64,000 nt of DNA from an uncultured Mycoplasma sp. (GTDB lineage: Bacteria; Bacillota_I; Bacilli_A; RF39; UBA660): positions 31,040-95,039 of the forward strand of contig CAMEXD010000002.1 in assembly GCA_945947035.1 (NCBI GenBank), given 5' to 3'. Below the pieces are notes generated by a model. The model did not search any database, had not been told where the DNA came from, and worked only from the letters and a program-made list of their open reading frames with translations. Of this stretch, positions 4,456 through 19,245 are shown piece by piece. Both the position numbers and the translations under genes were made by a program. Every line of letters begins with the position of its first letter. Position 1 is the stretch's first letter.

Positions 4456-5130
4456 CTATACCTCCAACTTATAACCTAATCCTCTAACTGATTTTATATT
4501 AACTTTTGATCCAATTATTTTTATTTTTTTTCTAATAAATGAAAGATAAGCTTCAAGATTATTAGATTCTATTTCATTATCAATTCCCCATACTTTATCA
4601 TAAATTTGTTCCTTTGATATTATTTGATTTTTGTTATTCATTAAATATTCAAGAAGCAAAAATTCTTTACAAACTATATCAATAGATTCATTAGTTGTAG
4701 TACATAAAAGATTGGATTTTTTTATATTAAGTTTTAAATCCCCTGCTTCAATATAATCTTTAATTCCTTTTTCGTCATTTCTAAGCAAATTATTAACTCT
4801 AGCTGTTAATTCTTCTATATGAAATGGTTTTGTTACATAGTCATTTGCACCACTTTTTAAACCATTTAATTTATCTTCAATCATAGATTTTGCTGTTAAC
4901 ATGATAACCTTTGATGTTACTTCATTTTCTTTTATCTTTTTTAAAATAGTAAAACCATCCATACTAGGAAGCATTACATCTAGTATAATTAAATCATAAA
5001 CATTTGATAAAGCATTATATAAACCTTCTTCACCATCGCAAATTGTATCAACAATGTATTTTTCTTTTTCAAGTCTTTCTTTTACTAAATCTGCTAAAGA
5101 CATTTCATCTTCAATAATTAAAATGCGCAC
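4456..5130 (-). CDS. OmpR-family response regulator
   Basis: Receiver domain MRILIIEDE...LIILDVMLPSMDG...LTAK. Winged-helix C-terminus VRGLGYKLEV. It sits 3 nt upstream of the kinase. Confidence 0.9.
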   Translation of the reverse strand: MRILIIEDEMSLADLVKERLEKEKYIVDTICDGEEGLYNALSNVYDLIILDVMLPSMDGFTILKKIKENEVTSKVIMLTAKSMIEDKLNGLKSGANDYVTKPFHIEELTARVNNLLRNDEKGIKDYIEAGDLKLNIKKSNLLCTTTNESIDIVCKEFLLLEYLMNNKNQIISKEQIYDKVWGIDNEIESNNLEAYLSFIRKKIKIIGSKVNIKSVRGLGYKLEV

Positions 5131-5195: not shown

Positions 5196-6434
5196 TTAGA
5201 TAATGAAATACTTTTTTACAAATACAAATGCTCCAGTTAAAACTACTAAAACACATAAAACAATAGTTGTTATAGTCATACTTTTTTTAGTTTCTTCTTT
5301 AAATACCAAATCTTCTTTCATTGTAGTTTTTATAACTTCATATCTATCATCATTAAAATCTATTTGATACCCTGACTTTAAATAAATAGAAGGATCACTT
5401 GAATATCTACCACCACTTATAAATTTATCGTGAGTTGTTTTAAAACTAGATGAAAGATTAAAAACATCTTTTGAAGCACTTGATAAAAAGTTTCCTCCAG
5501 TTATATCAATGTTTGTTACTTTAGTATTAGTTGTATTTGCTAAATATTCATAAATAACATTACTATTTTGACTTCTTAAACTACCGCCATTTATTGTTAT
5601 ATCAATATCACCTGCATAACTACTATTAGATTCTATTTGAAGTGATGCTCCAGATGGATTAACACCATTACCATATCCTTCAGTTGGAGTATTATCAACA
5701 CCAGTACAATAAAGTGTTCCATCATTTATTATTAAAGTACCAGATTTTATTGCTATAGCAGAATCAATTCCTTCAATATAAGCACCATCTATAACAACTT
5801 TTGAATATCCTGCCATATATATTCCTGAACCTAAAGAAGTTATTTTAGAATTTTTGTTAATATTTACTACAGGATAATTAGTTTTATTTTTAACATTACC
5901 ATTTATATAAACTCCAAAACCTTTTCCTCCTGCAACATCTAAAACAGAATTTATCGATCCATCTATAGTTACATTAACACCATATGAAAGTTTTTCATTT
6001 TGATCAATAAAAATACCAGACCAACCTTCTAAAAAGACATCAGATCCTATATTTACATTACTATAATTAGTATCAGAAGGATTAGTTGAACCTTTAATAA
6101 CTATTGGAGCATAATAAGGATTAATCTCTTTTACTGTACCTTTACCTTTTAAAGTAAGGGAACCATTTTGAACTTTAAAAACAATAGATTCTCCTAAAAT
6201 ATTATGACCATTTAAATCAATTGTAATTGGTTTATTAATATTTTGTGTATCTTTTAAAGTAATACTTGATGTTAATACAATAACATCATTAGATCCTGCA
6301 GCATCAATTGCATCACTTAATAAATCATAGTAATTATTACCAATTCTTGCTACAATGCCATCACTTGCAAAAACATTTTTTGGTACTAATAATAAAACAA
6401 ACAAAATAAAAAATTTAATGAGTTTATTTTTCAT
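5196..6434 (-). CDS. Secreted, C-terminally membrane-anchored protein, probably a beta-helix repeat fold
   Basis: Signal peptide MKNKLIKFFILFVLLLVPKNVFA. G/N/S/T/I-rich repetitive strands. C-terminal TM ITTIVLCVLVVLTGAFVFV followed by KKYF. Confidence 0.6.
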   Translation of the reverse strand: MKNKLIKFFILFVLLLVPKNVFASDGIVARIGNNYYDLLSDAIDAAGSNDVIVLTSSITLKDTQNINKPITIDLNGHNILGESIVFKVQNGSLTLKGKGTVKEINPYYAPIVIKGSTNPSDTNYSNVNIGSDVFLEGWSGIFIDQNEKLSYGVNVTIDGSINSVLDVAGGKGFGVYINGNVKNKTNYPVVNINKNSKITSLGSGIYMAGYSKVVIDGAYIEGIDSAIAIKSGTLIINDGTLYCTGVDNTPTEGYGNGVNPSGASLQIESNSSYAGDIDITINGGSLRSQNSNVIYEYLANTTNTKVTNIDITGGNFLSSASKDVFNLSSSFKTTHDKFISGGRYSSDPSIYLKSGYQIDFNDDRYEVIKTTMKEDLVFKEETKKSMTITTIVLCVLVVLTGAFVFVKKYFII

Positions 6435-14227: not shown

Positions 14228-15406
14228 CTATTTTACTAAATCATATGTATCTTTTGCTATCATTAATTCTTCATCTGTTGGAATTACCCATACTGGAATT
14301 TTAGAATCTTTTGTTGTTATGCAAACCTCTTTACCACGGCAATTATTAGCTTCGCTATCTAATTTTACTCCTAAAACTTCTAATTCTTGTAAAACTTCTG
14401 CTCTTGTTGCTATGCCATTTTCTCCAACTCCTGCGGTAAATACTATAGCATCACATCCACCAAGTTCAACATAGTATTTTGCAATATAATCAACAATTCT
14501 TCTAACATACATTTTATTAGCAAGAATACATCTTTTATTTCCTTCTTTTATTCCATTTTCAATATCACGAGCATCACTTGATACACCACTTATTCCAAGT
14601 AAACCTGATTTTTTATTTAAAATAGCATCCATTTCTTTTGGTGTAAGTCCTGCTTGTTCCATCATATAAGGTACTATAGTTGCATCAATATCACCACAAC
14701 GAGAACCCATAATAAGTCCTGCATTTGGAGTAAGTCCCATTGATGTATTAAGACATTTTCCATTTAATACTGCACTAATTGAAGCACCATTTCCAATATG
14801 ACAAGTAATAAGTTTAGTATCTTCTCTTCCTAAAATCTCATTTATTTTTAAAGTTACATATTTATGACTTGTACCATGAGCACCATATCTTCTAATTTTA
14901 TATTCACTTTCCCATTCATATGGTGTTGCATACATGTAATTATATTCTGGCATAGTTTGATGAAATGCTGTATCAAAAACAGTTGTTAAAGTAGCATCTT
15001 TAAATACTTCTTGTTCAGCACGAATACCTACAATAGCAGGTGGATTATGAAGTGGACCTAAAACACTTAATTCATCGATTTTTGAAATAACACTTTCTGT
15101 TGCTATAACACTTCTGTCAAAATAAGATCCTCCTTGAACAATACGATTTCCAATACCTTTAATATCTCTTAAACTATCAATTATTTTATTTTCTAAAAGT
15201 TCTTGTACTAAATATTGAAAAGCATCTTTATGATTTTCAAGATTAACTTCCTTTTTTATTTTTTCTCCATTCAATTTAATTGTATAAAAACTATCACTAA
15301 TTCCAATTCTTTCAAAAACTCCTGAAATTAGAACTTTTTCTTCAGGCATTTCAAATAATGTAAATTTTAAAGATGAACTACCTGCATTTACTGATAATAT
15401 TTTCAT
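14228..15406 (-). CDS. ackA: Acetate kinase
   Basis: MKILSVNAGSSSLKF N-terminus. Motifs RRYGAHGTSH and VFTAGVGEN. Confidence 0.95.
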   Translation of the reverse strand: MKILSVNAGSSSLKFTLFEMPEEKVLISGVFERIGISDSFYTIKLNGEKIKKEVNLENHKDAFQYLVQELLENKIIDSLRDIKGIGNRIVQGGSYFDRSVIATESVISKIDELSVLGPLHNPPAIVGIRAEQEVFKDATLTTVFDTAFHQTMPEYNYMYATPYEWESEYKIRRYGAHGTSHKYVTLKINEILGREDTKLITCHIGNGASISAVLNGKCLNTSMGLTPNAGLIMGSRCGDIDATIVPYMMEQAGLTPKEMDAILNKKSGLLGISGVSSDARDIENGIKEGNKRCILANKMYVRRIVDYIAKYYVELGGCDAIVFTAGVGENGIATRAEVLQELEVLGVKLDSEANNCRGKEVCITTKDSKIPVWVIPTDEELMIAKDTYDLVK

Positions 15407-15547
15407 ATATTGCCTCCTTCTTTATATACATAAATATTCTACCATAGTTTTACTTGTTTTGCTACAAATAATTGTTAATAAATAAAAATTAAAAAAAATA
15501 AAAATTAACCTTTAATTTATCTTTTTTTTATATGTTATAATAAAAAA

Positions 15548-15668
15548 GGAATACATTTGAAGTCGTTATCAAATGCTTTTCTATTAGTTTTTTACAAAAA
15601 GTATCTGAATTCAACAAATTATTTTAAAAAAATAAAGTAGAATTTAATACAACTACTTTATTTTTTTA
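15548..15668 (+). ncRNA. Predicted sRNA, copy 1 (conserved 5' hairpin with its own terminator)
   Basis: TGtTATAAT box at 15533-15541, 6 nt before GGAATAC. Hairpin CATTTGA/TCAAATG. Terminator AAAGTAG/CTACTTT plus T-run at 15634-15668. Confidence 0.45.
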
Positions 15669-15764
15669 TTATATTATAGATTATTTATTCTAAAATTAAC
15701 TTGAAATTATATTTTTTTTATGTTATTATGAATATGTCAAGGAAACCTTGAATATAATAAAAAA

Positions 15765-15853
15765 GGAATACATTTGAAGTCCTAATCAAATGCTTTTCCA
15801 TATTGTTGTAGAAGCATCTGAAATCAACATTAGTTACTTCAGATGCTTTTTTA
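15765..15853 (+). ncRNA. Predicted ~90-nt sRNA, copy 2, antisense to the 3' UTR of the 23-aa ORF
   Basis: TATAAT at 15753-15758, 6 nt before GGAATAC. The same 5' hairpin as copy 1. Ends in the stem-loop plus T-run at 15812-15852. Confidence 0.5.
15812..15852 (+). terminator. Rho-independent terminator of sRNA copy 2
   Basis: AAGCATCTGAA / TTCAGATGCTT 11-bp stem with a 15-nt loop, followed by T6. Confidence 0.75.
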
Positions 15854-15856
15854 TAT

Positions 15857-15928
15857 TCATAATAATTTTATTATTATAAAAAATAATAGTAGTATTATGA
15901 TAAATAAGATTTTTTCTCTTTGTGTCAT
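15857..15928 (-). CDS. 23-aa hydrophobic peptide MTQREKILFIIILLLFFIIIKLL (candidate type I toxin)
   Basis: AGGTGG SD 5 nt upstream of the ATG. A single TM-like segment. Convergent with sRNA copy 2. Below the ORF-track size cut-off. Confidence 0.45.
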   Translation of the reverse strand: MTQREKILFIIILLLFFIIIKLL

Positions 15929-15964
15929 AATAACCACCTGCCTTCCTTTTAAACTAAAAAGTAA

Positions 15965-15995
15965 GGAAAAGCATCTGACCTTTTCAAATGTATTC
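15965..15995 (-). repeat. Third, inverted copy of the conserved hairpin, located in the 5' leader of the 23-aa ORF
   Basis: The minus strand reads GAATACATTTGAAAAGGTCAGATGCTTTTCC. The stem is maintained by a U-A to U-G change relative to copies 1 and 2. Confidence 0.6.
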
Positions 15996-16046
15996 ATATA
16001 TATTATGCAATATTAATCAATAATTAACAAGAAAAAATTATAAAAT

Positions 16047-16466
16047 TTACATCTTTTCTAATATTTTTTCAATTGCCTTAACAGGAAGTAAGGCACAAGT
16101 TTTACGATTTGGTTGTAAATAAATATCATCGTAAACAATTAAGTCCTTTAAAACTTCTTTATCATAAGATAGTTCGTTTATCATATTTTTATAATTATCA
16201 ACGATTTCTTTTATCTCTTCTTTAGTTTTATTTAAAATAATCCTATTTATAATAGAAGTTGCACTTGTTGAAATAGCACAAGCTTCACCATCAAAATAAA
16301 CACCAACTATTTTATCATTTTCTACTTTAAAATAAATATCCAAATTATCAATACAACTTTCATTATTTGTATTAATCATAATATAACTATCATCATTTGG
16401 AACACCTTTATTAAAAGGATTATTATAATTGTCTAATATTATTTCTCTTTTTAATTCTTTATCCAT
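16047..16466 (-). CDS. sufU: SufU/IscU-type Fe-S scaffold / sulfur acceptor
   Basis: Motifs NPFNKG, GEACAISTS and RKTCALLP. It immediately follows sufS. Confidence 0.85.
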   Translation of the reverse strand: MDKELKREIILDNYNNPFNKGVPNDDSYIMINTNNESCIDNLDIYFKVENDKIVGVYFDGEACAISTSATSIINRIILNKTKEEIKEIVDNYKNMINELSYDKEVLKDLIVYDDIYLQPNRKTCALLPVKAIEKILEKM

Positions 16467-17660
16467 TTATATCACTTCTTTAAATATATTATAACTATTT
16501 TCTAACACTTTAACAAGTTCATCTATTTCTTCTTTAGTATTATAAAAATACAAACTAATACGGCAAGTATTTTTTATACCTAATTCATCTTTTAAGATTT
16601 TAGCACAATGATTTCCTGCCCTAACACAAATATTATGTTTATTTAAATATATAGCAGTATCTTGAGCAAAAATATTATCTAAATTAAATAATACTGTACC
16701 TGATATAGTATTTTTATTATATACTTTAACATTAGAAATATTAGAAAGTTTTTTTACTAAGTATTTTTTTAATTCTACTTCATGATCATGAATTTTATCC
16801 ATACCAATTTTTTCCAAATAAGATATTGCTTCACCTAAACCAACAACTCCAGCGATATTTTGAGTACCTGCTTCAAGTCTTGTTGGCAAAGTTTTAAGTT
16901 CGTAGGAACTATCTGTAAAACTACTATTCATACCTCCTCCTAAAACTAAAGGTTTAAGCTTATTTAAAAGTTCATATCTACCATATAAAATTCCAATTCC
17001 TGTTGGACCAAGCATCTTATGAGCAGAAAATGCCAAAAAATCGCAATTTAATTTTTTAACATCTGTTTTTAAATGTGGTACACTTTGGGCTCCATCTAAA
17101 ACAAAGTAAATATTATTTTCTTTACAAAACTTTCCTATTTCTACAACTGGTCTTACATCACCAATTGTATTTGTTATATGAGCAAGAGATATTACTTTGG
17201 TCTTTTTTGATACAACACTTTTTAAATTATCAAAAGTAAGCTCTAAATTTTCATTTAAAGGAATATATTTAATAACAATTCCTATTTCACTTTCAAGTTC
17301 TAACCAAGGAAGTATATTAGATGCATGTTCTGATTTTGAAAGTAATACTTCATCACCTTTTTTTAAATTATGTTTCATAAAGCCAAATACAATCATATTT
17401 AAACTTTCTGTTGTACCTTTTGTAAATACTATTTCACTAGTATTTGAAGCATTTATAAAGTTTTTAACTTGTTCTCTTACACCTTCATATTCTTTATCAA
17501 CTATTAAACTAATATCATAATCTCCCCTATGAGCATTTGATGTATAGTTACTATAATAAGATGTTGTTTTATCAATAACAGATTGTGGTTTAAAAGTTGT
17601 CGCACCATTGTCAAAATAAATAACATTATTTTTTAACATCGGGAAATCTTCTCTATTCAT
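16467..17660 (-). CDS. sufS: Cysteine desulfurase SufS (class II)
   Basis: YFDNGATT N-terminus. PLP lysine motif SAHKMLGPTGIG. Active-site RAGNHCA. Confidence 0.9.
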   Translation of the reverse strand: MNREDFPMLKNNVIYFDNGATTFKPQSVIDKTTSYYSNYTSNAHRGDYDISLIVDKEYEGVREQVKNFINASNTSEIVFTKGTTESLNMIVFGFMKHNLKKGDEVLLSKSEHASNILPWLELESEIGIVIKYIPLNENLELTFDNLKSVVSKKTKVISLAHITNTIGDVRPVVEIGKFCKENNIYFVLDGAQSVPHLKTDVKKLNCDFLAFSAHKMLGPTGIGILYGRYELLNKLKPLVLGGGMNSSFTDSSYELKTLPTRLEAGTQNIAGVVGLGEAISYLEKIGMDKIHDHEVELKKYLVKKLSNISNVKVYNKNTISGTVLFNLDNIFAQDTAIYLNKHNICVRAGNHCAKILKDELGIKNTCRISLYFYNTKEEIDELVKVLENSYNIFKEVI

Positions 17661-17663
17661 AAA

Positions 17664-18392
17664 TTACACCCCCCAAATTCTATCTAAATCATCTAAAATA
17701 AGATTAATTAATTCATCTATTTCCATATTACTAGTTAAAAATGATTTCGCAAGTAATTTTATTGCTTTATCATAACTAATTCCACGACTTTGCAAATAAA
17801 ATATTTCATTTGATTTAAAGTTACCAATATAAGCCGAATGACTTGAACTTATTTCATTGTTATCTATTATTAAATTAGGTTTTATAGAAGAATTACCATT
17901 CCTTTTTAAGATAATTTTACTATCTTGAATAGCATTTGAATTGATACTTTCTTTTTTTATATAACTATTAATTAAAAAATCAAGTTTTTTATCTGTAAAA
18001 TTAATTCCATAATTAACTACTTTACTAGTAGTATCCTTATCATTATGATATACATTTATTATATAATTATTATCATTAAGACTTATACAAGCATATTTAT
18101 ATAAAATATTTGATTTATAACTTAAATTTATATCAGTTTTAAAACTATTATCAAAAGAAAATCTATTAAGAGTTAGATTACTATTATTATCTAAATTATA
18201 AGTATTATAGCAACTACTATTAGTATAATATTCATAGATTTTAACATTGTTTTTTATATTAAAGTTATAATTACAATCGCTATCTTTATAGATAATAAAT
18301 ATGCTTTCATTTTCTAAATTAATATTAAAATCATCTATATCTAAAGGAAAATTACTACTTATTTTATTTTTTTCCACTACTATTTTATTCAT
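17664..18392 (-). CDS. sufD: Short SufB/SufD-family protein (242 aa)
   Basis: C-terminal motif SHSAYIGNF...IFYLQSRGISYDKAIKLL. It is much shorter than a typical SufD. Confidence 0.65.
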   Translation of the reverse strand: MNKIVVEKNKISSNFPLDIDDFNINLENESIFIIYKDSDCNYNFNIKNNVKIYEYYTNSSCYNTYNLDNNSNLTLNRFSFDNSFKTDINLSYKSNILYKYACISLNDNNYIINVYHNDKDTTSKVVNYGINFTDKKLDFLINSYIKKESINSNAIQDSKIILKRNGNSSIKPNLIIDNNEISSSHSAYIGNFKSNEIFYLQSRGISYDKAIKLLAKSFLTSNMEIDELINLILDDLDRIWGV

Positions 18393-18411
18393 AATTTTAC
18401 TCCTTGCTTAG

Positions 18412-19152
18412 TTATTTTGCCTCATATTCATTATAACCATACTGATCAATTTCTTTAGCTAAAGTAAAATCACCACTTTTTACTATTTTACCATCTTTTA
18501 AAACATGAACATAATCTGGTTTTATATAATCAAGAAGTCTTTGATAATGAGTTATCATTAAAACACTTACATCTTTATTTTCTTTTAAGTAATCGTTAAC
18601 ATTAGAACAAACAATTCTTAAACTATCAACATCAAGTCCAGAATCTAACTCATCTAAAATTATAAATTTAGGTTTTAACATTTTCATTTGTAAAATTTCA
18701 TTTTTATGTTTTTCTCCACCAGAAAAGTTTTCGTTAACACTTCGATGCATCATACTTTTATCAAGTGATAAATCATCATAATATTTATCTATTTCTTTTA
18801 TAAAATCATATAAAGGAACAACTTCACCTTTTATTTCATTAAGTGAAGTTCTAATAAATTCACTATTAGTTACACCTTCAATATCAATAGGATTTTGAAA
18901 TGATAAAAATATTCCAAGTTTTGCTCTTTCATCAGTTGTTAAAGAAAGAATTGATTTGTTATCACATAAAATATCACCTTTAGTAATATCATAATCACTA
19001 CTTCCTAAGATAACTTTAGAAAGAGTTGATTTACCAACACCATTAGGTCCCATTATAACATGAATAGTACCTTTTTCTATACTAAGATTAAAATCATTTA
19101 AAATATTTTTTTCACCTGCATTAACGCATAAATTTTTTATTTCTATATTCAT
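18412..19152 (-). CDS. sufC: Fe-S assembly ATPase SufC
   Basis: Walker A GPNGVGKST, signature FSGGEKHKNEI, Walker B ILDELDSGLD. I moved the start to MNIEIKNL (ATG at 19152), because the promoter at 19180-19208 lies inside the track's N-terminal extension. Confidence 0.9.
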   Translation of the reverse strand: MNIEIKNLCVNAGEKNILNDFNLSIEKGTIHVIMGPNGVGKSTLSKVILGSSDYDITKGDILCDNKSILSLTTDERAKLGIFLSFQNPIDIEGVTNSEFIRTSLNEIKGEVVPLYDFIKEIDKYYDDLSLDKSMMHRSVNENFSGGEKHKNEILQMKMLKPKFIILDELDSGLDVDSLRIVCSNVNDYLKENKDVSVLMITHYQRLLDYIKPDYVHVLKDGKIVKSGDFTLAKEIDQYGYNEYEAK

Positions 19153-19179
19153 AATAAATTCACTCTTTTCACTGCTCAT

Positions 19180-19208
19180 ATTATAACACTTTATTTTTTT
19201 AGACACAA
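19180..19208 (-). promoter_or_regulatory. Sigma-A-type promoter of the suf operon
   Basis: TTGTGT, 17-nt spacer, TGtTATAAT, read on the minus strand. Confidence 0.55.
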
Positions 19209-19245
19209 GAAAAACATGCCAAAATGACATGTTTATAAATTTTTA

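What the first reader, a model, noticed from the sequence alone, without database searches (positions are those of the whole stretch)
15530..16010. Convergent sRNA / 23-aa hydrophobic peptide cassette built on a three-copy hairpin: candidate type I toxin-antitoxin locus
About 640 nt of non-coding DNA between ackA (start 15406) and sufU (stop 16047) is highly organised.

1. The 46-nt block TATAATAAAAAAGGAATACATTTGAAGTCnnnATCAAATGCTTTTC occurs twice on the plus strand (15536-15581 and 15753-15798) with 2 mismatches. It begins with a -10 box placed 6 nt before GGAATAC. The transcribed part folds as GGAA-UA-CAUUUGA-loop-UCAAAUG-CUU-UUCC.
2. A third copy lies inverted on the minus strand (15995-15965). 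It keeps the stem through a U-A to U-G change (TCAAATG to TCAGATG).
3. Copy 2 ends in an 11-bp stem plus T6 (15812-15852), which predicts a ~90-nt sRNA. Copy 1 carries a diverged version of the same body and a different terminator (15634-15668).
4. Downstream of copy 3 on the minus strand come an AGGTGG SD and the ORF MTQREKILFIIILLLFFIIIKLL (15928-15857). This ORF runs head-on into sRNA copy 2, so its 3' UTR would be perfectly antisense to that sRNA. The reverse complement of the copy-2 hairpin followed by T6 would terminate it.
5. AAGCATCTGA is a direct repeat on the plus strand (15812 and 15969). The sRNA can therefore also pair with UCAGAUGCUU in the 5' hairpin of the peptide mRNA. CCUUACUUUU/AAAAGGAAGG can additionally fold over the region just 5' of the SD.

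This combination defines par/Fst (RNA I-RNA II) and the 3'-overlapping Bacillus systems txpA/RatA and bsrG/SR4. The elements are convergent transcription, a tiny hydrophobic peptide, a shared terminator region and a second pairing site near the 5' end. The peptide does not obviously belong to those families.
Basis: partly seen in the sequence, partly recalled or inferred. Interest (0 to 1): 0.7.

Follow-up and report, generated by a model that had tools for sequence, protein, structure and literature searches.

The report
Candidate new type I toxin-antitoxin module

Summary

The core cassette (window 15701-16030) recurs as a unit in four other MAG species labelled Bacilli or Tenericutes, each time between different housekeeping genes. 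It is 70-76% identical in DNA, while flanking proteins are only 35-49% identical.

- **Peptide:** it is conserved (MT[KQ]RE plus an 18-19-residue hydrophobic helix). pS exceeds pN in every pair (dN/dS 0.11-0.74), and both within-species ORF changes are synonymous.
- **Regulatory elements:** both convergent promoters, five RNA helices and the sRNA terminator persist, some with compensatory changes.
- **Decay and variability:** two copies have decayed in toxin and sRNA together. Relatives with 76-93% identical SufU lack the cassette at this site.
- **Family membership:** no Pfam, NCBIfam or Rfam family matches.

The sRNA probably starts about 29 nt further upstream, at a conserved extended -10 promoter. 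The inverted third copy makes the mRNA's two ends complementary. The second pairing site is only weakly supported.

Verdict: a well-supported candidate for a new type I TA family. Transcripts and toxicity remain untested.

The parts
15533..15541 (+). Extended -10 promoter (TGtTATAAT) of the orphan sRNA copy 1
   Evidence: Read from the sequence. Relative to copy 2 it is a fusion that removes the 29-nt hp0 segment.
15548..15667 (+). Orphan sRNA paralogue (copy 1). It has the same 5' hairpin (15548-15581) and a diverged body with AAGTATCTGAATTCAACA, plus its own A/T-rich terminator (15625-15667). No toxin ORF is attached.
   Evidence: Fold z = -3.8. CM hit of 41 bits, E = 4.5e-5. Retained in the same-species MAGs L115, L129 and L130. 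An analogous orphan copy with its own terminator exists in L030 at 4572-4681.
15701..15729 (+). Promoter P1 of the antitoxin sRNA (copy 2): TTGAAA-17 bp-TG-extended TATTAT
   Evidence: 10 of 12 plus TG. Conserved with the same spacing, 6-7 nt before hp0, in L056, L052 and L030B.
15736..15852 (+). Candidate antitoxin sRNA (about 118 nt). It comprises hp0 (15737-15751), an A-rich linker, hp1 (15765-15799), and a terminator stem (15810-15848) whose 3' end runs into the T6 tract (15847-15852).
   Evidence: CM hit 15736-15853, 105.7 bits. Folds. RNAalifold finds 25 pairs, 3 with compensatory changes. The hp0 stem differs in sequence between lineages but always folds.
15857..15928 (-). Candidate toxin ORF, 23 aa: MTQREKILFIIILLLFFIIIKLL (stop TGA)
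   Evidence: Homologues of 25 aa occur in L056, L052 and L030. dN/dS is 0.11-0.74 and control frames show no such signal. Only synonymous variation is seen within the species cluster. Hydrophobic core GRAVY is about 3.4.
15934..15939 (-). Shine-Dalgarno AGGTGG, 5 nt before the ATG
   Evidence: GGTGG or GGAGTGA is conserved in relatives. It is predicted to pair with codons ~10-13 (P unpaired 0.02-0.22).
15941..15966 (-). mRNA 5'-UTR hairpin hpB (CCUUACUUUU...AAAAGGAAGG), which abuts the SD
   Evidence: It folds in every locus although the sequences differ. Compensatory pairs appear.
Its 3' arm UCAGAUGCUU is complementary to AAGCAUCUGA of the sRNA. The whole element is complementary to the mRNA's own 3' end.
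16002..16030 (-). Toxin mRNA promoter TTGTTA-17 bp-CATAAT, with the start near G15995
   Evidence: 9 of 12. The same 17-bp spacing and 6-7-nt distance to hpA are seen in L056, L052 and L030B (4 nt in L058). It is degenerate in the decayed copy L030A.
15755..15856 (-). Inferred 3' UTR of the toxin mRNA, antisense to about 95 nt of the sRNA. It ends at the reverse complement of hp1 followed by U6 (the complement of A-run 15759-15764).
   Evidence: On this strand the first hairpin has no U-run and the second has U6-7 in all loci. The 3' end itself is inferred, not measured.

Best explanation
This is a chromosomal type I toxin-antitoxin-like cassette of a family not yet described.

Toxin side. A moderately strong promoter (16030-16002, minus strand) makes a roughly 240-nt mRNA. 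Its 5' end is buried in a hairpin (hpA). A second hairpin (hpB) abuts the SD. The SD and start codon pair with codons ~10-13. The mRNA encodes a 23-aa peptide with a charged MTQRE head and a single hydrophobic helix. Translation is therefore intrinsically poor.

mRNA 3' end. The mRNA reads through the antisense of the sRNA terminator. It stops at the reverse complement of the sRNA's hp1 followed by U6. Because hpA and hp1 form an inverted repeat, the two ends of the finished mRNA can pair. This would close the molecule and hide its 5' end.

Antitoxin side. A stronger, extended -10 promoter (15701-15729, plus strand) makes a roughly 118-nt sRNA. It is perfectly complementary to about 95 nt of the mRNA 3' UTR and ends about 4 nt before the stop codon. 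It also has an 8-10-nt match to hpA.

Proposed mechanism. Duplex formation at the 3' ends would trigger RNase III-type cleavage and decay and/or keep the mRNA untranslated, as in B. subtilis txpA/RatA and bsrG/SR4. If the sRNA falls, the peptide is made and inserts into the membrane. Copy 1 is an extra, orphan sRNA paralogue with its own promoter and terminator.

Shown here: all sequence elements, their conservation, purifying selection on the peptide, the predicted folds, and the mobility and decay pattern. Inferred: transcript ends, the order of pairing events, the nuclease involved, and toxicity.
For: - Chance excluded: the repeat architecture is real and not expected by chance.
- Recurs as a unit: the cassette is present in L115, L129, L130, L135 and L136 (same species cluster) and in four other MAG species (L056, L052, L030 with two copies, L058) at 70-76% DNA identity.
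- Context varies: it sits after sufU in the window, between whiA and clpP in L052, after an M50 peptidase gene in L030, upstream of the M23-like gene in L056, and next to an endonuclease gene in L058.
- More conserved than its host: flanking proteins of L030 are only 35-49% identical to the window's.
- Peptide family: MT[KQ]RE plus a hydrophobic helix. pS exceeds pN in all divergent pairs, dN/dS is 0.11-0.74, and control frames lack the signal. Both within-species ORF variants are synonymous.
- Promoters: both are conserved with 17-bp spacers, and the sRNA promoter is the stronger (10-11 of 12 plus TG, against 7-9 of 12).
- Helices: all five fold in every lineage, and compensatory changes are seen.
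- Fold stability: sRNA z = -5.1, mRNA z = -6.1.
- SD: predicted paired, P(unpaired) 0.02-0.22.
- mRNA closure: the 5'-3' pairing is in the MFE of all four lineages. It is worth -10 to -14 kcal/mol, with pairing probability 0.99-1.0, in the three lineages quantified.
- Co-decay: L058 is frameshifted and its sRNA has collapsed to one hairpin. L030A has an ATA start, a degenerate SD and degenerate promoters.
- Presence/absence: relatives with 76-93% identical SufU lack the cassette after sufU.
- Geometry: it matches the Gram-positive 3'-side antisense class (PMC8594479; PMC6562991).
Against: - There is no expression, end-mapping or toxicity data of any kind. All genomes are MAGs from gut metagenomes.
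- Only about four independent lineages are available, so covariation statistics are weak: 3 of 25 pairs for the sRNA and 7 of 72 for the mRNA show compensatory changes.
- In a 23% GC genome, I/L/F/K-rich ORFs arise easily. A second stop-free frame exists on the same strand, and long open frames exist on the sRNA strand.
- The peptide matches no known toxin family.
- The extra 5' pairing site is short, lies upstream of the SD, and is not clearly better than shuffles in relatives (z about -1.1 to -1.8). It carries a mismatch in L030B.
- The mRNA 3' end, and so the 5'-3' closure, is inferred. In L115 one pair of that helix is broken.
- No further copies occur in the 64-kb window.
Confidence: 0.7

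Rival explanations
1. The cassette encodes a non-toxic small membrane protein, for example a regulatory or accessory subunit of a membrane complex. Its expression is tuned by a cis-antisense sRNA. The cassette is an ordinary small gene and not an addiction or stress module.
For: Purifying selection shows only that the peptide matters, not that it is toxic. The cassette sits among housekeeping genes and was not found on plasmids or phages. The only weak HMM similarities are to small membrane proteins: the Ecr family at E = 0.02 and SecE at E = 0.25, both far below cut-off.
Against: - The chromosomal position differs in every lineage, and the cassette is absent from close relatives.
- L030 carries tandem duplication plus orphan sRNA copies.
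- Toxin ORF, SD, promoter and sRNA decay together in L030A and L058.
- Translation is silenced at several layers.
- The antisense promoter is the stronger one.

These traits are typical of selfish or toxic type I loci and not of housekeeping small proteins.
Confidence: 0.17
2. The hairpin blocks are merely intrinsic terminators or insulators. Read on the minus strand, each plus-strand block is a hairpin followed by T6, which could terminate the suf operon and shield ackA. On this view the ORF and the 'sRNA' are by-products of AT-rich sequence.
For: The reverse complements of copies 1 and 2 are hairpin-plus-U6 structures on the strand of sufU and ackA. The third copy lies 50 nt after the sufU stop codon. 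AT-rich DNA yields hydrophobic ORFs and -10-like boxes by chance: 9 promoter-like sites were found against 7.5 expected.
Against: - The whole 330-bp unit, including ORF, SD and both 17-bp-spaced promoters, moves together to unrelated contexts.
- The ORF shows frame-specific purifying selection.
- Relatives terminate sufU with a simple unrelated hairpin (L133) or have no gap at all.

The terminator function is probably real, but as part of the cassette.
Confidence: 0.05
3. The two plus-strand RNAs are trans-acting regulatory sRNAs whose main targets lie elsewhere in the genome. Their overlap with the small ORF is secondary.
For: Copy 1, and the orphan copy in L030, exist without an adjacent ORF and have their own terminators. 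The hp1 stem arms (ACAUUUGA / UCARAUG) are conserved well beyond what stem formation alone requires.
Against: In every full-length locus the sRNA gene is physically coupled, tail to tail, with the peptide gene, and the two decay together. No other matching sites occur in the 64-kb window. The rest of the genome could not be searched.
Confidence: 0.06

Closest known systems
par/Fst-RNA II of Enterococcus faecalis pAD1 and its staphylococcal relative SprA1/SprA1as (PMC7472228; PMC8594479)
   Same: - The promoters are convergent.
- The antisense RNA lies on the 3' side and overlaps only the 3' UTR, not the ORF.
- The terminator stem-loops are complementary.
- A DNA direct repeat transcribed in opposite directions (AAGCATCTGA) gives a second complementary site.
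- An intramolecular structure hides the SD, as the 5'-SL does.
- The extreme 5' end of the toxin mRNA is buried in a helix, as with the 5'-UH.
   Different: - The peptide has no PXXXG motif and no charged C-terminal tail. Its charges sit at the N-terminus, and the Fst HMMs do not match.
- The sRNA does not match the Rfam antitoxin models.
- The repeat lies in the 5' hairpin about 30 nt upstream of the SD and does not cover the SD or start codon.
- The antisense of the sRNA terminator has no U-run, so the terminator is not bidirectional. The mRNA seems to use the antisense of the sRNA's 5' hairpin instead.
Bacillus subtilis txpA/RatA, bsrG/SR4, bsrE/SR5 and yonT/SR6 (PMC6562991)
   Same: These are chromosomal systems with tail-to-tail genes and a long perfect 3' duplex, about 95 nt here. 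That predicts RNase III-initiated decay. The SD is partly sequestered in the toxin mRNA, and the antitoxin promoter is stronger than the toxin promoter.
   Different: In those families the antisense RNA also overlaps the 3' end of the ORF. Here it stops about 4 nt short of the stop codon. Those toxins are 38-59 aa long and unrelated in sequence, and most lie on prophage or prophage-like elements. No HMM or Rfam match was found.
hok/Sok and aapA/IsoA, which use a 5'-3' long-distance interaction in the full-length toxin mRNA (PMC6733600)
   Same: The full-length mRNA is predicted to close by pairing its 5' end with its 3' end. This appears in the MFE of all four lineages. The gain is -10 to -14 kcal/mol and the pairing probability 0.99 or more in the three lineages quantified.
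   Different: In hok and aapA the interaction sequesters the SD, and 3' trimming activates translation. Here the SD stays paired with a local anti-SD whether or not the last 48 nt are removed in silico. The closure would therefore affect stability or sRNA access and not translation. Those systems are proteobacterial, and their antisense RNA lies inside or 5' of the ORF.
dinQ/agrA-agrB of E. coli, where a homologous second sRNA gene sits in the locus (mentioned in PMC8594479)
   Same: The locus carries a paralogous second sRNA gene (copy 1 in the window, and the orphan copy in L030) next to the cognate antitoxin.
   Different: The geometry differs: in dinQ the sRNAs are 5'-side and non-overlapping. 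The peptide is unrelated. Whether copy 1 acts on the toxin mRNA is unknown.

Membership tests
Type I toxin-antitoxin systems (general class) | Small (20-60 aa) hydrophobic peptide encoded on a short mRNA (150-400 nt) | tested here: met
   The ORF encodes 23-25 aa with a hydrophobic core (GRAVY 2.7-3.6) and is under purifying selection. The inferred mRNA is about 240 nt. The size criteria come from PMC8594479.
Type I toxin-antitoxin systems (general class) | An antisense RNA gene with its own promoter and terminator, complementary to the toxin mRNA | tested here: met
   At the sequence level only. The promoter is conserved (10-11 of 12 plus TG), a terminator with a T-run is conserved, and about 95 nt overlap on the opposite strand. 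Transcription itself was not observed.
Type I toxin-antitoxin systems (general class) | The peptide is toxic when over-expressed and the RNA neutralises it | not testable with these tools
   This needs expression experiments. The only indirect hints are the co-decay of toxin and sRNA in L058 and L030A and the presence/absence polymorphism.
Fst/Ldr (par) family | Fst-type peptide: hydrophobic domain with a PXXXG motif and a charged C-terminal tail (PMC7472228) | tested here: not met
   None of the five peptides has PXXXG. The C-terminus is 0-1 charged residue, and the charged residues are N-terminal. No Pfam or NCBIfam hit at E <= 10.
Fst/Ldr (par) family | RNA II-type antitoxin | tested here: not met
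   No type I antitoxin family of Rfam 15 appears at E <= 10 in the window locus or in L052, and none at gathering score in the whole window.
Fst/Ldr (par) family | Convergent promoters and a shared bidirectional intrinsic terminator | tested here: inconclusive
   Convergent promoters are present. The sRNA terminator hairpin has no U-run on the mRNA strand in any locus. The mRNA probably terminates one hairpin further on.
Fst/Ldr (par) family | Direct repeats (DRa/DRb) transcribed in both directions, whose pairing covers the SD and start codon | tested here: not met
   A single 8-10-nt repeat (AAGCATCTGA, 15812 and 15969) exists. It lies in the 5' hairpin upstream of the SD. Its duplex energy is not clearly above shuffles in relatives.
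TxpA/RatA and BsrG/SR4-type families | Toxin peptide of the TxpA/BsrG families, and an antisense RNA that overlaps the 3' part of the ORF | tested here: not met
   No HMM hit. The sRNA T-run ends at 15852 and the stop codon is at 15857-15859. The weak Rfam hit to Bacillus ncr1015 (21 bits against a 60-bit gathering score, E = 5) is noise.
hok/Sok and aapA/IsoA | A 5'-3' long-distance interaction that sequesters the SD and is released by 3' processing | tested here: inconclusive
   A 5'-3' closure is predicted in all lineages. It does not involve the SD, and in-silico 3' truncation does not free the SD. The peptides and RNAs match no Hok model in Pfam or NCBIfam, and no Sok or other type I antitoxin model in Rfam.

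The most novel reading that the evidence does not exclude
One inverted repeat does three jobs in this cassette. It forms the 5' hairpin of the antitoxin sRNA. Read backwards, it forms the terminator of the toxin mRNA. Together with its partner at the mRNA 5' end, it forms a hok-like 5'-3' lock on the full-length toxin mRNA. sRNA binding would have to compete with that lock.

This would be the first fold-back-locked type I toxin mRNA in a Firmicute-type, 3'-overlapping system. The cassette would also be a horizontally moving element among distantly related gut Bacilli and Tenericutes-like lineages. Its DNA is 70-76% conserved where housekeeping proteins are 35-49% identical.
Probability: 0.3. 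Interest if true: 0.6.

Novelty: new member of a known kind. Interest (0 to 1): 0.5.

Why it matters
[quoted passage not shown] The peptides fall below gene-calling thresholds, and known families have been reported from only a few phyla (PMC12390103).

This cassette has no Pfam, NCBIfam or Rfam match. It comes from uncultured, extremely AT-rich gut bacteria that have no genetics.

If confirmed, it adds a toxin family and an antitoxin RNA family that could be modelled and searched for. It would also give a compact example in which promoter, terminator and RNA-RNA pairing functions are folded into the same repeated hairpin.

The spot downstream of sufU is a variable site in this lineage, and a relative carries an Abi_2 gene there. 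That is relevant to how small selfish or defence modules settle in reduced genomes.

Tried and rejected
- **Rfam.** Searches at gathering score (whole window) and at E <= 10 (the locus, and L052) gave only noise, such as snoRNA models and ncr1015 at 21 of 60 bits.
- **Genome-contig scan.** The first hairpin pattern was too loose. Only six loci were real (L115, L056, L052, L030, L058).
- **Metagenome and viral scans.** A tighter pattern found only chance matches inside a coding sequence.
- **Plasmid and phage collections.** blastn gave no hit in plasmids and only a 37-nt chance hit in Lak phages.
- **Exact SufU look-up.** It failed. The SufU homologue route yielded same-species copies and empty sites, but no new divergent cassettes.
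- **Genetic code 4.** TGA as Trp would lengthen the peptide to 25 aa. This was rejected because TGA ends 7 of 52 long ORFs and never occurs in frame.
- **Upstream ATG (46-aa ORF, 15997).** Rejected because it is absent or out of frame in relatives.
- **Antisense 57-80-aa open frames on the sRNA strand.** Starts and ends are not conserved, and the frame is broken in L030B.
- **Leader-peptide or attenuator for ackA.** Rejected because the downstream genes differ in every locus.
- **RNAduplex on the second pairing site.** The result was inconclusive.
Full report
**1. The observation**

The window is about 23% GC throughout. It uses the standard bacterial code: TGA ends 7 of 52 long ORFs and never occurs in frame.

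The 640-nt gap lies between an acetate kinase gene (14228-15406, minus strand) and a NifU_N/SufU-type gene (16047-16466, minus strand). The latter closes a sufC-sufBD-sufS-sufU operon.

- The 49-nt direct repeat spans 15536-15584 and 15753-15801 at 94% identity.
- The third, inverted copy lies at 15966-15993 with a U-G replacement. A looser pattern finds exactly these three copies, and shuffles give none.
- The two different terminators fold as described.
- The SD plus 23-aa ORF are in place.
- AAGCATCTGA lies at 15812 and 15969, with AAGTATCTGA at 15599.
- The predicted sRNA (z = -5.1) and mRNA (z = -6.1) fold far better than shuffles.
- No Rfam family matches.

**2. Relatives**

The single genome-collection scan was too permissive. 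A blastn of its 119 loci against the window nevertheless picked out real homologues.
- L115 is the same species (94.5% identity over 8 kb).
- Four other MAG species are labelled 'uncultured Bacilli' or 'uncultured Tenericutes' and come from rabbit, human (Hadza) and other samples: L056, L052, L030 (two tandem copies plus an orphan sRNA) and L058.

The homology covers window 15714-16006, that is sRNA copy 2 plus the ORF plus the third hairpin. Identity is 70-76%. L030's flanking proteins are only 35-49% identical to the window's.

The neighbours differ each time.
- In the window the cassette follows sufU.
- In L052 it lies between whiA and clpP.
- In L030 it follows an M50-peptidase gene of the radC-mreCD cluster.
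- In L056 it lies upstream of an M23-like gene.
- In L058 it lies next to a nuclease gene and spoVAC.

SufU homologues led to more contigs.
- The cassette is present after sufU in L129, L130, L135 and L136, where SufU is 94-95% identical.
- It is absent in L133 and L134 (93%), where a simple terminator and an LRR protein follow sufU.
- It is absent in L137 (87%), where an Abi_2 gene follows.
- It is absent in L125-L128 (81%), where PFOR follows.
- It is absent in L131 (76%), where sufB follows.

The cassette is therefore an autonomous, patchily distributed unit.

**3. The peptide is a real gene**

On the strand opposite the sRNA, every full copy has an SD (GGTGG or GGAGTGA) 5-6 nt before an ATG and a 23-25-codon ORF.

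| Locus | Peptide | State |
|---|---|---|
| window, L115 | MTQREKILFIIILLLFFIIIKLL | intact |
| L056 | MTKREFSLFTIILLLFLVVIILLLK | intact |
| L052 | MPKREFPLFIIILLLFLVVIILLLK | intact |
| L030B | MTKREFFLYVIIFLLIIENLIFLFN | intact |
| L030A | ITKREYFLCLVILILFIEAFILLFK | ATA start, weak SD |
| L058 | frameshifted | decayed |

- L056 and L052 differ at 10 codons, 7 of them synonymously, including CGA/AGA and CTC/TTA.
- pS exceeds pN in all 14 divergent pairs (dN/dS 0.11-0.74). The other two frames of the same strand do not show this.
- Within the species cluster the only two variable ORF sites are synonymous.
- The upstream ATG that would give 46 aa is not conserved.
- Long open frames on the sRNA strand are not conserved in extent.
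- Pfam and NCBIfam give nothing at E <= 10 apart from sub-threshold noise.

**4. The RNAs**

*Antitoxin sRNA.* A promoter with a -35 box, a 17-bp spacer and a TG-extended -10 sits 6-7 nt before a small hairpin (hp0) in the window (15701-15729), L056, L052 and L030B. It scores 8-11 of 12 plus TG.

The sRNA is therefore most likely about 118 nt (15736-15852). In copy 1, a 29-nt deletion has placed the extended -10 directly in front of the A-run.

*Toxin mRNA.* Its promoter is TTGnTn-17-TAtAAT at 7-9 of 12 and lies 6-7 nt before GGAUAC or GAAUAC in the four full-length lineages (4 nt in L058). It is degenerate in the decayed copy L030A.

*Structure conservation.* All five helices fold in every lineage despite sequence change: sRNA hp0, hp1 and terminator, and mRNA hpA and hpB. 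Examples are UCAAGG/CCUUGA versus AUGAAG/CUUCAU in hp0, GGAA/UUCC versus GGAU/AUCC in hp1, and three different versions of hpB. The sample is small, about four lineages, so this is supportive and not statistically strong.

**5. How the pieces fit**

On the mRNA strand the antisense of the sRNA terminator has no U-run in any locus. The antisense of hp1 is followed by U6-7, which is the invariant A-run of the sRNA strand. I therefore place the mRNA 3' end near 15757. This gives a roughly 240-nt mRNA whose 3' UTR is antisense to about 95 nt of the sRNA. The sRNA ends about 4 nt short of the stop codon.

Because hpA (copy 3) and hp1 (copy 2) form an inverted repeat, the mRNA 5' end (GGAUACAUUUGA...UCAGAUGCUUUUCC) is complementary to its own 3' end.
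- This closure is in the MFE of all four lineages.
- Where quantified (window, L056, L052), it is worth -10 to -14 kcal/mol over local-only folding and has pairing probability 0.99-1.0.
- The window-specific GAAUAC variant occurs in both copies, which keeps one pair. L115 breaks one pair.

The SD and AUG are paired with codons ~10-13 (P unpaired 0.02-0.22). They stay paired when the last 48 nt are removed in silico. The closure would therefore act on 5'-end protection or sRNA access and not on SD exposure.

The extra 8-10-nt complementarity between the sRNA (AAGCAUCUGA) and hpA exists in all loci, with one mismatch in L030B. Taken as a whole-duplex energy, it is not clearly better than shuffles in relatives.

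**6. Mechanism proposed**

Shown: the sequence elements, their conservation, selection on the peptide, and the predicted folds.

Inferred:
- The toxin mRNA is made at a low level and is translationally silent.
- The more strongly transcribed sRNA pairs with the 3' UTR, probably starting loop to loop at the complementary terminator hairpins.
- This leads to RNase III-type cleavage and decay and/or maintained repression, as in txpA/RatA and bsrG/SR4 (PMC6562991).
- Loss of the sRNA lets the peptide be made and inserted into the membrane.
- Copy 1, and the orphan copy in L030 (4572-4681), are extra sRNA paralogues with their own terminators. Copy 1 keeps G-U-compatible complementarity to hpA. This recalls agrA/agrB at dinQ.

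**7. Comparison with known systems**

In geometry the cassette belongs to the Gram-positive class, in which the antisense RNA lies on the 3' side. Like Fst/RNA II and SprA1/SprA1as, and unlike TxpA, BsrG and YonT, it does not overlap the ORF (PMC8594479).

It is not a member of the Fst family (PMC7472228).
- The peptide has no PXXXG motif and no charged C-tail.
- No RNA II match was found.
- The repeat does not cover the SD or start codon.
- The terminator is not bidirectional.

The predicted 5'-3' closure resembles hok and aapA mRNAs (PMC6733600), but it does not sequester the SD.

Type I systems have been reported from Proteobacteria, Firmicutes and Tenericutes, and in 2025 from a cyanobacterium (PMC12390103). 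A new family in gut Bacilli or Tenericutes-like MAGs is therefore an extension and not a surprise.

**8. Verdict**

- I put 0.7 on a type I TA-like cassette: a membrane peptide under cis-antisense RNA control that is probably toxic.
- I put about 0.17 on a non-toxic small membrane protein with the same regulation.
- Small weights go to 'terminators only' and to 'trans-acting sRNAs'.
- Novelty: a new member (a new peptide family and a new RNA family) of a known kind.
- Interest: 0.5.

Noticed in passing
window 16047-19230; L131 2923-4230; L125 2996-5423; L137 673-1602; L133 2096-3418: The site immediately downstream of sufU is variable among close relatives. It holds this cassette plus ackA in the window, sufB in L131, PFOR in L125-L128, an Abi_2 (abortive-infection) gene in L137 and an LRR protein in L133. 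The window's suf operon has no full-length sufB after sufU. It has only a 242-aa SUFBD_core protein at 17664-18392.
   Followed up: partly
L030 about 5962-6078 (minus strand): A second, unrelated small hydrophobic ORF lies about 600 nt from the cassettes: MLILFLLILLLVLVLFIICSLILGKEYDNNTFNQKIKIK, 39 aa. It has a strong GGGAGG SD and a clean terminator. Its layout is an N-terminal helix plus a polar tail, as in many type I toxins. No antisense partner was looked for.
   Followed up: no
L030 4572-4681 (minus strand): A third, orphan sRNA-like copy (hp0, hp1 and half of the terminator arm, then a new terminator AAAAACACTA...TAGTGTTTTTT) lies next to the two tandem cassettes. It mirrors the orphan copy 1 of the window. 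Orphan antitoxin-like copies therefore arose at least twice.
   Followed up: partly
window 15714-16006 versus L030, L056 and L052: The cassette DNA (70-76% identical) is much better conserved than the housekeeping proteins of the same MAGs (35-49% amino-acid identity for radC, mreC and the M23-like and M50-like genes). This suggests horizontal spread or unusually strong constraint on nearly every base.
   Followed up: partly
window 15800-15812 versus L115, L129, L135 and L136: The window strain differs from all other members of its species cluster in the sRNA linker (CCATATTGTTGT------AGAAGC against CTATATTTGTTTTTTACAAAAAGC). The version in the other strains resembles copy 1 of the same locus, which hints at gene conversion between the two sRNA copies.
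   Followed up: no
L058 2141-2491: One MAG carrying a (decayed) cassette encodes SpoVAC/SpoVAEB. At least part of the host range therefore consists of spore-forming Firmicutes and not of wall-less Mollicutes, despite the 'Tenericutes' label of L052.
   Followed up: no
window 15843-16016 (+); L052 5318-5548 (+): Stop-free frames of 57-80 codons run on the sRNA strand across the antisense of the toxin ORF in several loci. Their starts and ends are not conserved and the frame is broken in L030B, so they are probably a by-product of the composition.
   Followed up: yes
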